Of a DNA stretch of 32,218 nt, positions 9,364 to 9,834 are shown in pieces (within the stretch, counting starts at the first letter, position 1; each line of letters starts with the position of its first letter). The notes below the pieces were generated by a model, which made no database searches, had not been told where the DNA came from, and saw nothing but the letters and a program-made list of their open reading frames with translations. Position numbers and translations under genes: made by a program. Source of the DNA: a virus (Duplodnaviria; Heunggongvirae; Uroviricota; Caudoviricetes). The stretch lies in IMG/VR virus record IMGVR_UViG_2534682164_000018; one strand, 5' to 3'.

Positions 9364-9834
9364 TTAAAAAAGTACCACACCAATTTCATTAAATTCACAT
9401 TGGCAATTATATCTTACTGGACACTCGCATAATTTAAACACGGCGTAAGAGCCTTTAAGTTCTTCAGTTACGTACTTTTCCATAAACTCGATATCATCTG
9501 GTTCACAAAAAAGATGAAATCCGACACCAAGATAATTACGCATTTTGTAGTTACACTGTCTTATAGCACTAATTTTATTTTTGTCAGCATTTAAGCCCCT
9601 AACTAATGGTACTACACCTTTAGTACATTTAAACTCAATAAAAATATAATCATCAGAGGGTGTGGATTTTTCACGCAGTATCAAATCTACTTTAGCAAGT
9701 TTACTATCAGGATAATCTATTGGATCGAGGTATATCGTAACTTCACGATGTAGCTCGTACTTCCTTTTTGAAGTTAGATAATGAGCAAATTCTATTTGCA
9801 GCCACTTTTCCCAATCATTAGTTTCTTTTTTCAC
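9364..9834 (-). CDS. putative PD-(D/E)xK-fold nuclease with C-terminal Cys cluster
   Basis: KVDLIL followed 19 residues later by IFIEFK gives the D...ExK spacing of restriction-endonuclease-fold nucleases; CECPVRYNCQC cluster at C-terminus; reverse strand, immediately upstream of terS. Confidence 0.4.
   Translation of the reverse strand: MKKETNDWEKWLQIEFAHYLTSKRKYELHREVTIYLDPIDYPDSKLAKVDLILREKSTPSDDYIFIEFKCTKGVVPLVRGLNADKNKISAIRQCNYKMRNYLGVGFHLFCEPDDIEFMEKYVTEELKGSYAVFKLCECPVRYNCQCEFNEIGVVLF

What the first reader, a model, noticed from the sequence alone, without database searches (positions are those of the whole stretch)
9364..9834. Reverse-strand putative PD-(D/E)xK nuclease with a Cys cluster immediately upstream of the packaging genes
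The D...ExK spacing (VDLIL then IFIEFK) and the C-terminal CxCx6CxC cluster suggest a restriction-endonuclease-fold enzyme with a metal-binding module. Its orientation opposes the late operon, so it is likely an independently expressed cargo gene (defence, homing or DNA processing).
Basis: inference. Interest (0 to 1): 0.45.

Follow-up and report, generated by a model that had tools for sequence, protein, structure and literature searches.

The report
Orphan prophage nuclease beside terminase genes
A small reverse-strand gene next to the DNA-packaging genes of a Shigella sonnei prophage encodes an unnamed member of the restriction-endonuclease-like (PD-(D/E)xK) nuclease superfamily; many enterobacterial prophages carry it as an optional extra, and this copy is broken by a one-base deletion.

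Summary
The ORF at 9364..9834(-) exists, but it is only the 3' 83% of a 187-codon gene (9364..9926). The gene is split by a 1-nt deletion in an A8 run (A7 at 9849-9855). The same allele is intact in at least 23 Shigella sonnei contigs.

No Pfam, NCBIfam, PHROG or PADLOC model matches, and every source calls the protein "hypothetical".

The gene is accessory. It occurs in 18 of 43 close TerS relatives and in 2 of 80 phages with an unrelated TerS type. It always diverges from terS at 30-109 bp. It lies between terS and a conserved ~90-nt cos-like element, beyond which variable cargo sits (Drt2, JukA).

Most likely it is a stand-alone metal-dependent DNA endonuclease used in conflict between phages (exclusion or homing). 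The function is inferred, not shown.

The parts
9364..9926 (-). Full gene of the nuclease family (187 codons in intact relatives), here interrupted by a -1 frameshift
   Evidence: Homologues are 186-187 aa. Restoring one A gives a protein identical to S. sonnei P0160 from its MSDR start onward. dN/dS among intact relatives is 0.03-0.17.
9364..9834 (-). The flagged 156-codon GTG ORF, the post-frameshift remnant. It holds the whole predicted nuclease core and the Cys cluster.
   Evidence: AF2 model pLDDT 88.9 with H7-22, E26-36, E46-55, E63-71, H74-89, E98-107.
9849..9855 (-). A7 homopolymer, the site of the 1-nt deletion (eight bases in intact alleles)
   Evidence: DNA alignment with six intact loci. 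S. sonnei contigs L122-L125 have A8.
9831..9926 (-). N-terminal remnant: 26 in-frame codons ([26 protein letters not shown]), then out of frame to a TGA that overlaps the GTG of the flagged ORF
9790..9792 (-). Codon of E46 (E15 of the 156-aa ORF), the conserved glutamate of the first core helix (QIEF)
   Evidence: 135/135 in the family; lies in helix H40-53 of the model.
9685..9687 (-). Codon of D81 (KVDLIL), the putative catalytic aspartate in core strand 2
   Evidence: 134/135; lies in strand E77-86.
9628..9636 (-). Codons of E98-F-K100 (IEFK), the ExK motif in core strand 3
   Evidence: E 133/135 (+2 D), K 133/135; lies in strand E94-102.
9397..9429 (-). CxCx5CxC cluster (C167, C169, C175, C177), a subfamily-specific insertion in the C-terminal hairpin and a putative Zn knuckle
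   Evidence: Invariant in the 7 closest sequences. Present in ~14 of 135 family members. Loop pLDDT ~60.
9273..9362 (-). Conserved non-coding element that begins two bases after the stop codon: TGCGGTGCGGG, an imperfect inverted repeat around an AT-rich spacer, CGAAAAC.CGC, and GGAG.ACC. Probably the cos/packaging-signal region. Homology between phages ends just beyond it.
   Evidence: nhmmer finds it in all 18 gene-bearing and 22 of 25 gene-less TerS loci; in the gene-less loci it lies directly upstream of terS. No Rfam hit. The cos assignment is inference.
9962..10507 (+). Small terminase subunit gene, divergent from the nuclease gene (35-bp gap)
   Evidence: PHROG 57, E 1e-22; Phage_Nu1 E 8e-5, below Pfam's cut-off.
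10422..13656 (+). GpA-type large terminase gene split by an IS2 insertion (IS2 = 10825..12155)
   Evidence: ORFs and the PHROG 15 hit. IS2 is 99.9% identical to E. coli IS2. Its limits come from the identical inverted copy.

Best explanation
The gene encodes a small (187 aa), single-domain, divalent-metal-dependent DNA endonuclease of the PD-(D/E)xK (restriction-endonuclease-like) fold. It belongs to a family that no database has named.

Predicted architecture:
- Active site: E46 in the first core helix, D81 in strand 2, E98-x-K100 in strand 3.
- Two N-terminal helices precede the core.
- In this clade, a CxCx5CxC knuckle in the last beta-hairpin probably binds zinc and stabilises or positions a DNA-contacting loop.

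The gene is not part of the packaging machinery. It is an optional one-gene cassette of about 600 bp, inserted between the phage's cos-like element and terS. It points away from terS and against late transcription.

Inferred mechanism: the gene is transcribed on its own, most plausibly in the lysogen, and is silenced by antisense late transcription after induction. Its product cuts incoming DNA of competing phages or mobile elements. The result is exclusion of that DNA and/or copying of the cassette into relatives that lack it.

In this window the copy sits in an IS-wrecked S. sonnei prophage and carries a 1-nt deletion (A8 to A7). If the deletion is real, the gene is inactivated.

Shown: gene structure, frameshift, family conservation, predicted fold, accessory status and insertion site.
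Inferred: nuclease activity, metal binding, timing of expression, target and biological role.
For: - Real, selected gene: dN/dS 0.03-0.17 among intact relatives, and all 13 close loci examined are intact.
- Accessory: present in 18 of 43 close TerS relatives and 2 of 80 Terminase_2-type relatives. Lone copies occur between housekeeping-like genes in Kosakonia.
- Fixed site and orientation: in 51 IMG/VR loci the gene starts 30-109 bp from terS and diverges from it, across TerS identities of 41-98%. The same arrangement occurs with an unrelated Terminase_2 TerS.
- Clean insertion polymorphism: the ~90-nt element that abuts terS in gene-less phages abuts the gene's stop codon in gene-bearing ones.
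- Conflict context: the variable region just beyond the element holds Drt2 (E 1e-202) and JukA (E 5e-72) in gene-bearing loci L002 and L003, and PDC-S31 or DUF3800 proteins in gene-less loci. Cos-adjacent loci are established anti-phage hotspots in P2 and P4 (PMC9122126).
- Intact in at least 23 S. sonnei contigs although terL there is broken by IS2.
Against: - No sequence model of any nuclease or defence family matches significantly: Pfam, NCBIfam, PADLOC, PHROGs and PDB sequence searches.
- No sigma-70-like promoter was found upstream of the gene, so independent expression is unproven.
- There is no sensor, regulatory or immunity partner. How a lone nuclease would spare host DNA is unexplained.
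- The known defence genes lie on the other side of the cos-like element, so the guilt by association is loose. Chromosomal copies have no PADLOC neighbours.
- Defence and homing cannot be separated with these data.
- The copy in the window itself is frameshifted.
Confidence: 0.45

Rival explanations
1. It is a free-standing homing endonuclease gene. The enzyme cuts the cos-terS junction (or terS) of related phages that lack the cassette. Repair from the cassette-bearing genome then copies the gene and neighbouring packaging-module markers into them. Exclusion would be a by-product.
For: - A precise presence/absence polymorphism lies between two conserved flanks, the cos-like element and terS.
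- The gene is next to essential genes, as reported for phage HEGs (PMC10055350).
- It sits about 105 nt from a mosaic junction.
- Identity to the window falls with distance from the gene in L013: TerS 97%, TerL-N 98%, TerL-C 86%, portal 59%.
- It occurs sporadically at the same relative site in an unrelated TerS system (2 of 80).
- Nuclease and TerS divergence disagree: nuclease 35% with TerS 78% in L030, versus 56% with 68% in L021.
- Several decayed copies exist: L061, L073, L078 and the window.
Against: - The gene is oriented against the surrounding operon.
- Lone chromosomal copies in Kosakonia lie outside recognisable phage DNA.
- The protein has no accessory DNA-binding module of the kind usual in free-standing HEGs.
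- PD-(D/E)xK homing enzymes are rare (own knowledge: I-Ssp6803I).
- Strong purifying selection and an intact copy in a dead S. sonnei prophage fit a host-beneficial role equally well.
- No target site has been identified.
Confidence: 0.25
2. It is a DNA-processing enzyme for the phage's own replication or packaging, for example a structure-specific endonuclease or Holliday-junction resolvase that debranches concatemers (like T7 endonuclease I or Hjc), or a helper acting at cos.
For: - Its size and single-domain E...D...ExK layout resemble the small resolvases. Hjc appears among the Foldseek PDB hits (2wiw, 2wcz; probability 0.2-0.5).
- It lies invariably next to terS and the cos-like element in two unrelated terminase systems.
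- Resolvases of lambdoid phages are themselves optional (own knowledge: Rap, RusA).
Against: - It is absent from 25 of 43 and 78 of 80 phages with closely related terminases, so packaging does not need it.
- It is antisense to the late operon that makes the packaging proteins.
- It occurs as a lone chromosomal gene with no phage genes nearby.
- GpA-type TerL carries its own nuclease domain (PF20454).
Confidence: 0.12
3. It has a nuclease fold but is a non-catalytic DNA-binding protein, for example a regulator of the divergent terS/late region or a cos-binding factor.
For: - The start codon is 30-109 bp from terS, so the two genes share their control region.
Against: All four catalytic-type residues, plus E40, E62, D115 and K118, are invariant or nearly so across 135 sequences. 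That is the pattern of an active enzyme, not of a degenerate domain.
Confidence: 0.05

Closest known systems
PD-(D/E)xK (restriction-endonuclease-like) nuclease superfamily; the closest solved folds are the Wolbachia CinB nuclease domain (7esz_A) and type II enzymes R.SwaI, BglI, BglII, BamHI and OkrAI
   Different: Sequence identity is 5-15%. No sequence profile links them. No methyltransferase family appears among the called neighbours of six related loci. The protein is much smaller than CinB and has two extra N-terminal helices and, in this clade, a Cys knuckle.
Shedu SduA (DUF4263), a single-gene anti-phage PD-(D/E)xK nuclease
   Same: A stand-alone nuclease of the same fold carried on mobile elements. 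It is a Foldseek PDB hit (8ps5_A, probability 0.90, E 0.023).
   Different: No DUF4263/Shedu model matches in Pfam or PADLOC. SduA is about 400 aa with an N-terminal sensing or regulatory domain; this protein is 187 aa.
TnsA-like endonuclease N-terminal domain (PF08722)
   Same: It is the only Pfam family hit by several members, and it is a PD-(D/E)xK catalytic domain (7 of 81 members, best E 0.005).
   Different: The hits are far below significance for the window protein itself. There is no TnsB/C/D-type partner and there are no transposon ends.
Free-standing phage homing endonucleases (T4 Seg/Mob, ICP1 HEGs) and the PD-(D/E)xK homing enzyme I-Ssp6803I
   Same: A small nuclease gene present or absent at one fixed intergenic site beside essential genes and at a mosaic boundary (PMC10055350).
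   Different: It belongs to a different sequence family, is oriented against its neighbours, has no recognisable DNA-binding add-on, and homing has not been tested.
Lambda bor and the cos-adjacent defence hotspots of P2 and P4
   Same: A reverse-strand accessory gene in the interval between the lysis genes and the terminase genes (lambda bor: own knowledge). Cos-adjacent hotspots hold anti-phage genes (PMC9122126). Relatives carry Drt2 and JukA in the adjoining slot.
   Different: The nuclease lies on the terS side of the cos-like element, not in the variable slot itself. Its position is fixed rather than shuffled.
PD-(D/E)xK nucleases with Cys-ligated metals: NotI (Fe-Cys4) and Cas4/AddB/Exo5 (4Fe-4S)
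   Same: A nuclease core of this fold combined with a four-Cys site (own knowledge of those enzymes).
   Different: The pattern here is CxCx5CxC within one C-terminal hairpin, not the split C...CxxCx5C pattern of Cas4-type clusters. It is missing from about 90% of the family, so it is not needed for the core function.

Membership tests
PD-(D/E)xK nuclease superfamily | Alpha-beta-beta-beta-alpha-beta core fold | tested here: met
PD-(D/E)xK nuclease superfamily | Catalytic D at strand 2 and (D/E)xK in strand 3, with an acidic residue in helix 1, conserved across homologues | tested here: met
   D81 134/135, E98 133/135 (+2 D), K100 133/135, E46 135/135. The residues lie on the expected elements of the model.
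PD-(D/E)xK nuclease superfamily | Significant match to a curated sequence model of a member family | tested here: not met
   No Pfam or NCBIfam hit for the window protein at E up to 1. Only weak TnsA-like hits in 7 of 81 relatives. PDB profile searches were empty.
PD-(D/E)xK nuclease superfamily | Metal-dependent phosphodiester cleavage | not testable with these tools
   Needs a purified protein and D81/E98/K100 mutants.
Type II restriction-modification system | Cognate DNA methyltransferase gene next to the endonuclease gene | tested here: not met
   No methyltransferase family appears among the called genes within 8-10 kb in L001-L006. In the window the neighbours are terS and a small secreted-type ORF.
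Known anti-phage defence systems (PADLOC-DB v2, including Shedu) | Match to a model of a known or candidate defence protein | tested here: not met
   No PADLOC hit at E up to 1 and no DUF4263 hit. Neighbouring Drt2 and JukA hits in relatives show that the method works.
Free-standing homing endonuclease gene | Presence/absence polymorphism at one site between conserved flanks, close to an essential gene | tested here: met
   The gene lies between the conserved ~90-nt element and terS in 18 loci. In 22 gene-less loci the element directly abuts terS.
Free-standing homing endonuclease gene | Site-specific cleavage of the cassette-less allele and biased inheritance | not testable with these tools
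   Needs cleavage mapping and mixed-infection crosses.
Cas4/AddB-type Fe-S nucleases | Four Cys in the pattern C-Xn-CxxCx5C bracketing the nuclease core, conserved family-wide | tested here: not met
   The pattern is CxCx5CxC, lies entirely C-terminal, and is present in only ~14 of 135 members.
Phage packaging machinery (essential accessory of terminase, like HK97 gp74 HNH) | Co-inheritance with the terminase in all related phages | tested here: not met
   Absent from 25 of 43 phages with TerS 61-72% identical to the window's, and from 78 of 80 Terminase_2-type relatives.

The most novel reading that the evidence does not exclude
The gene is a cos-proximal 'packaging-module driver': a site-specific nuclease cassette that has repeatedly settled in the few dozen bases between the packaging signal and terS in unrelated terminase systems. 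It cuts that junction in cassette-less competitors, blocking their packaging or genome integrity, and drags itself and the adjoining terminase/head module into them by repair. This would make a new family of PD-(D/E)xK homing or marker-exclusion enzymes a cause of the mosaic boundary at phage genome ends.
Probability: 0.2. Interest if true: 0.6.

Novelty: new member of a known kind. Interest (0 to 1): 0.38.

Why it matters
The family is real and under selection. It has about 190 clusters at 50% identity, and every source labels it "hypothetical". It is found in prophages of Shigella, E. coli, Klebsiella, Enterobacter, Citrobacter and Yersinia, and in Pseudomonas-like phages.

Naming it as a PD-(D/E)xK nuclease removes a blank from many annotations.

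Its rigid placement between a cos-like element and terS is unusual. The placement recurs with unrelated terminases and sits beside slots that carry Drt2 and JukA. This makes it a cheap, testable candidate for either a new single-gene exclusion system or a new homing-endonuclease family that shapes recombination at phage genome ends.

For this particular window the practical message is modest: the copy is frameshifted and sits in a dead prophage.

Tried and rejected
- Sequence-model searches of the ORF and of 81 relatives against Pfam, NCBIfam, PHROGs and PADLOC gave no usable hit.
- PDB sequence and profile searches were empty.
- tblastn and megablast against INPHARED phages, PLSDB plasmids and complete E. 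coli genomes found neither the gene nor the region.
- Foldseek against afdb50 was unavailable.
- Foldseek against the PDB gave only weak hits.
- 'Core packaging gene' was rejected on its distribution.
- 'Restriction-modification endonuclease' was rejected because no methyltransferase is nearby.
- 'Cas4-like Fe-S nuclease' was rejected on the Cys pattern and its patchiness.
- I first took the conserved 10-mer GCGGTGCGGG after the stop codon for part of the cassette, because an exact match occurs only in gene-bearing loci. A profile search then showed that the whole element also exists in gene-less phages next to terS. It therefore belongs to the phage's packaging region and not to the nuclease cassette.
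- The element has no Rfam match. No contig end coincides with it, so its identity as cos stays unproven.
- The idea that the A8 tract is a conserved phase-variation switch was rejected, because relatives have TA7 or A7C there.
- A promoter scan found nothing convincing for the gene.
- PADLOC scans of neighbours of the chromosomal copies found no defence genes.

Full report
**1. What is at the coordinates**

The ORF listing gives a 156-codon GTG ORF at 9364..9834 on the reverse strand with the quoted motifs. Downstream in window coordinates lie terS (9962..10507; PHROG 57, E 1e-22) and a GpA-type terL. The terL is split by an IS2 copy at 10825..12155.

The ORF is not a whole gene. The six closest proteins in the 5.8-billion-protein collection are all 186-187 aa. 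Their first 31 residues are encoded in the window at 9926..9849 in another frame. A DNA alignment with six intact loci puts a single missing base in a homopolymer: A7 at 9849-9855 against eight bases elsewhere. The flagged ORF is therefore the part of a 187-codon gene (9364..9926) downstream of a -1 frameshift. Its GTG overlaps the TGA of the N-terminal remnant.

The Cys cluster reads CxCx5CxC, not x6.

**2. Source and status of this copy**

The cluster of the nearest homologue contains Shigella sonnei proteins. From their MSDR start onward they are identical to the window gene once one A is restored. Four S. sonnei contigs are 99.95% identical to the window over 3.6-4.4 kb, with one mismatch and one gap. 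The gap is the A-run, and all four contigs have A8. These draft contigs break inside terL, where the window has IS2.

The window is therefore an IS-ridden S. sonnei prophage. It carries IS21-family, two IS2 and IS3-family copies. The frameshift is either a strain-specific mutation or a homopolymer sequencing error. The tract is not conserved as A8 in relatives, so it does not look like a contingency switch.

**3. Is it a real gene, and is the motif meaningful?**

All 13 close loci examined have intact 187-codon ORFs. Pairwise dN/dS among them is 0.03-0.17.

A profile search of 1.84 billion cluster representatives found 193 proteins at E up to 1e-3 and 64 at E up to 1e-10. Nearly all are single-domain proteins of 175-200 aa. 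In an alignment of 135 of them:
- E46, D81, E98 and K100 are invariant or nearly so.
- So are W39, E40, W42, Q44, E62, D115, K118 and R130.
- The four-Cys cluster is an insertion found in about 14 of 135.
- Variants such as CxCx..CxxH occur in nearby clades.

**4. Fold**

Two AlphaFold2 models were made:
- The full-length homologue: pLDDT 87.4, pTM 0.83.
- The window's own 156-aa product: pLDDT 88.9.

Both show the following layout:
- Two N-terminal helices (missing from the truncated product).
- Helix H40-53 carrying E40 and E46.
- Strands 57-67, 77-86 (D81) and 94-102 (E98, K100).
- Helix 105-120, strand 129-138 and helix 143-157.
- A terminal hairpin whose loop is the Cys cluster (pLDDT ~60).

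Structure comparisons:
- Foldseek against viral models returns proteins annotated as PD-(D/E)XK nucleases at E 2e-4 to 1e-2.
- Foldseek against the PDB is weak. The best nuclease hit is SduA, at probability 0.90 and E 0.023.

No sequence model matches:
- Pfam, NCBIfam, PADLOC, PHROGs and PDB sequences gave nothing.
- 7 of 81 relatives give weak TnsA-like hits.
- All source names are "hypothetical protein".

The superfamily call rests on predicted structure and motif conservation. I consider it well supported but not experimentally shown.

**5. Genomic setting**

Of 64 IMG/VR loci that encode a relative, 51 carry the window's type of packaging module: Nu1/DUF1441-like TerS, GpA TerL and lambda-type portal. 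In all 51 the gene diverges from terS with an estimated gap of 30-109 bp (median 68). TerS identity ranges from 41% to 98% and nuclease identity from 25% to 99%.

The same divergent adjacency occurs in high-GC phages whose TerS is an unrelated Terminase_2 protein (E 2e-42).

The gene is nevertheless optional:
- Only 18 of 43 loci found through close TerS relatives carry it.
- Only 2 of the 80 best Terminase_2-type relatives carry it.
- It also occurs as a lone gene between housekeeping-like genes in Kosakonia, as a truncated copy in Enterobacter sp. EA-1, beside tail-fibre genes, and in an unclassified element.

**6. The element next to it**

Two bases after the stop codon begins a ~90-nt non-coding element (window 9273-9362). 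It consists of:
- TGCGGTGCGGG.
- An imperfect inverted repeat around an AT-rich spacer. The arms differ between clades but stay complementary: GCGGGT/ACCCGC here, GCGGGCTGATC/GATCGGCCTGC in L035, GTTTCGG/CCGAAAC in gene-less L116.
- CGAAAAC.CGC.
- GGAG.ACC.

Homology between phages ends about 105 nt after the stop codon.

The exact 10-mer follows the gene in 42 loci plus the window. A profile of the whole element also finds it in 22 of 25 gene-less loci, where it ends within roughly 35-90 bp of terS. The nuclease gene is therefore a clean ~600-bp insertion between this element and terS.

Three things suggest the cos/terminase-recognition region:
- It travels with GpA-type terminases.
- It sits where lambda has cosN-cosB (own knowledge).
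- It marks the mosaic boundary.

This is inference. Rfam has nothing and no contig end coincides with it.

Beyond the element lies variable cargo:
- Drt2 (E 1e-202) in L002 and L003.
- JukA (E 5e-72) in L002.
- PDC-S31, DUF3800 or EAL proteins and small lipoproteins in gene-less phages.

Cos-adjacent hotspots of anti-phage genes are documented for P2 and P4 (PMC9122126).

**7. How it most likely works**

The invariant acidic and lysine residues point to an active metal-dependent endonuclease rather than a degenerate domain.

The evidence excludes some roles:
- Optional distribution excludes a required packaging role.
- The lack of a nearby methyltransferase excludes a classical R-M enzyme.
- The Cys pattern and its patchiness exclude a Cas4-type Fe-S nuclease.

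Other features fit a selfish or host- and prophage-beneficial nuclease acting on competing DNA:
- Orientation against late transcription.
- A fixed slot at the genome end.
- Neighbouring defence cargo.
- Persistence in a dead S. sonnei prophage.

Two versions cannot be separated here.
- A prophage-expressed exclusion nuclease. I rank this slightly ahead because of the orientation, the chromosomal lone copies and the intact S. sonnei alleles.
- A free-standing homing endonuclease. This is supported by the clean insertion polymorphism between conserved flanks, the position next to essential genes and at a mosaic boundary (PMC10055350), the discordant nuclease/TerS divergence, and several decayed copies.

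A resolvase-like DNA-processing role and a non-catalytic DNA-binding role are minor rivals.

**8. Novelty and verdict**

This is a new, unnamed family within a very well known superfamily, so I rate it a new member of a known kind. The recurrent placement between the packaging signal and terS is the most interesting aspect and is directly testable. The specific copy in this window is frameshifted. Interest is moderate.

Noticed in passing
window 9273-9362: A conserved ~90-nt non-coding element lies directly 3' of the nuclease gene: TGCGGTGCGGG, an inverted repeat with clade-specific but complementary arms around an AT-rich spacer, CGAAAAC.CGC, and GGAG.ACC. It is also present next to terS in related phages that lack the gene, and it marks the point where homology between phages stops. 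It is probably the cos/terminase-recognition region. It has no Rfam match.
   Followed up: partly
window 10825-12155 and 27051-28381: Two 1331-nt IS2 copies, 100% identical and in inverted orientation. One splits the large terminase gene. Together they bracket 14.9 kb of head and tail genes, so the prophage cannot package and the bracketed segment could invert.
   Followed up: partly
window 5125-7094 and 30703-31901: Two further insertion sequences: an IS21-family istA/istB pair, absent from this position in some S. sonnei contigs (L122-L124), and an IS3-family orfA/orfB pair at the window's right end.
   Followed up: partly
window 5000-10900 vs L122-L125: The window is 99.95% identical to Shigella sonnei draft contigs. 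Apart from one mismatch, the only difference is the A8/A7 run inside the nuclease gene. The S. sonnei annotation starts the protein 11 codons too early (198 aa) compared with all homologues.
   Followed up: yes
window 358-912 and 1959-2702: Two forward-strand HNH endonuclease genes (PF13392 and PF01844) lie upstream of the lysis/late region. Related loci L002 and L003 also carry an HNH_3 gene. Their role (homing or packaging helper) was not examined.
   Followed up: no
L002 9767-10519 and 11482-12759; L003 11002-12279: Related prophages, including one in Yersinia enterocolitica, carry a type 2 defence-associated reverse transcriptase (Drt2, E 1e-202). One also carries JukA, in the variable slot just beyond the cos-like element, 0.4-3 kb from the nuclease gene.
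   Followed up: partly
window 8856-9218: A small forward ORF converges on the nuclease gene. From an internal ATG it encodes a signal-peptide-like protein (MEKLILLLLLPLTTSAA...). It has relatives at the same place in only a few loci (L011, L022, L023) and no family match.
   Followed up: no
window 18247-20898: An 883-aa protein with a C-terminal Peptidase_S74 (intramolecular chaperone of tailspikes or fibres) domain sits directly after the head genes, an unusual position for a fibre- or spike-like gene.
   Followed up: no
L061, L073, L078: Other copies of the nuclease gene are truncated by premature stops (an Enterobacter sp. EA-1 chromosome and two IMG/VR contigs). This shows recurrent decay of the family.
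   Followed up: partly
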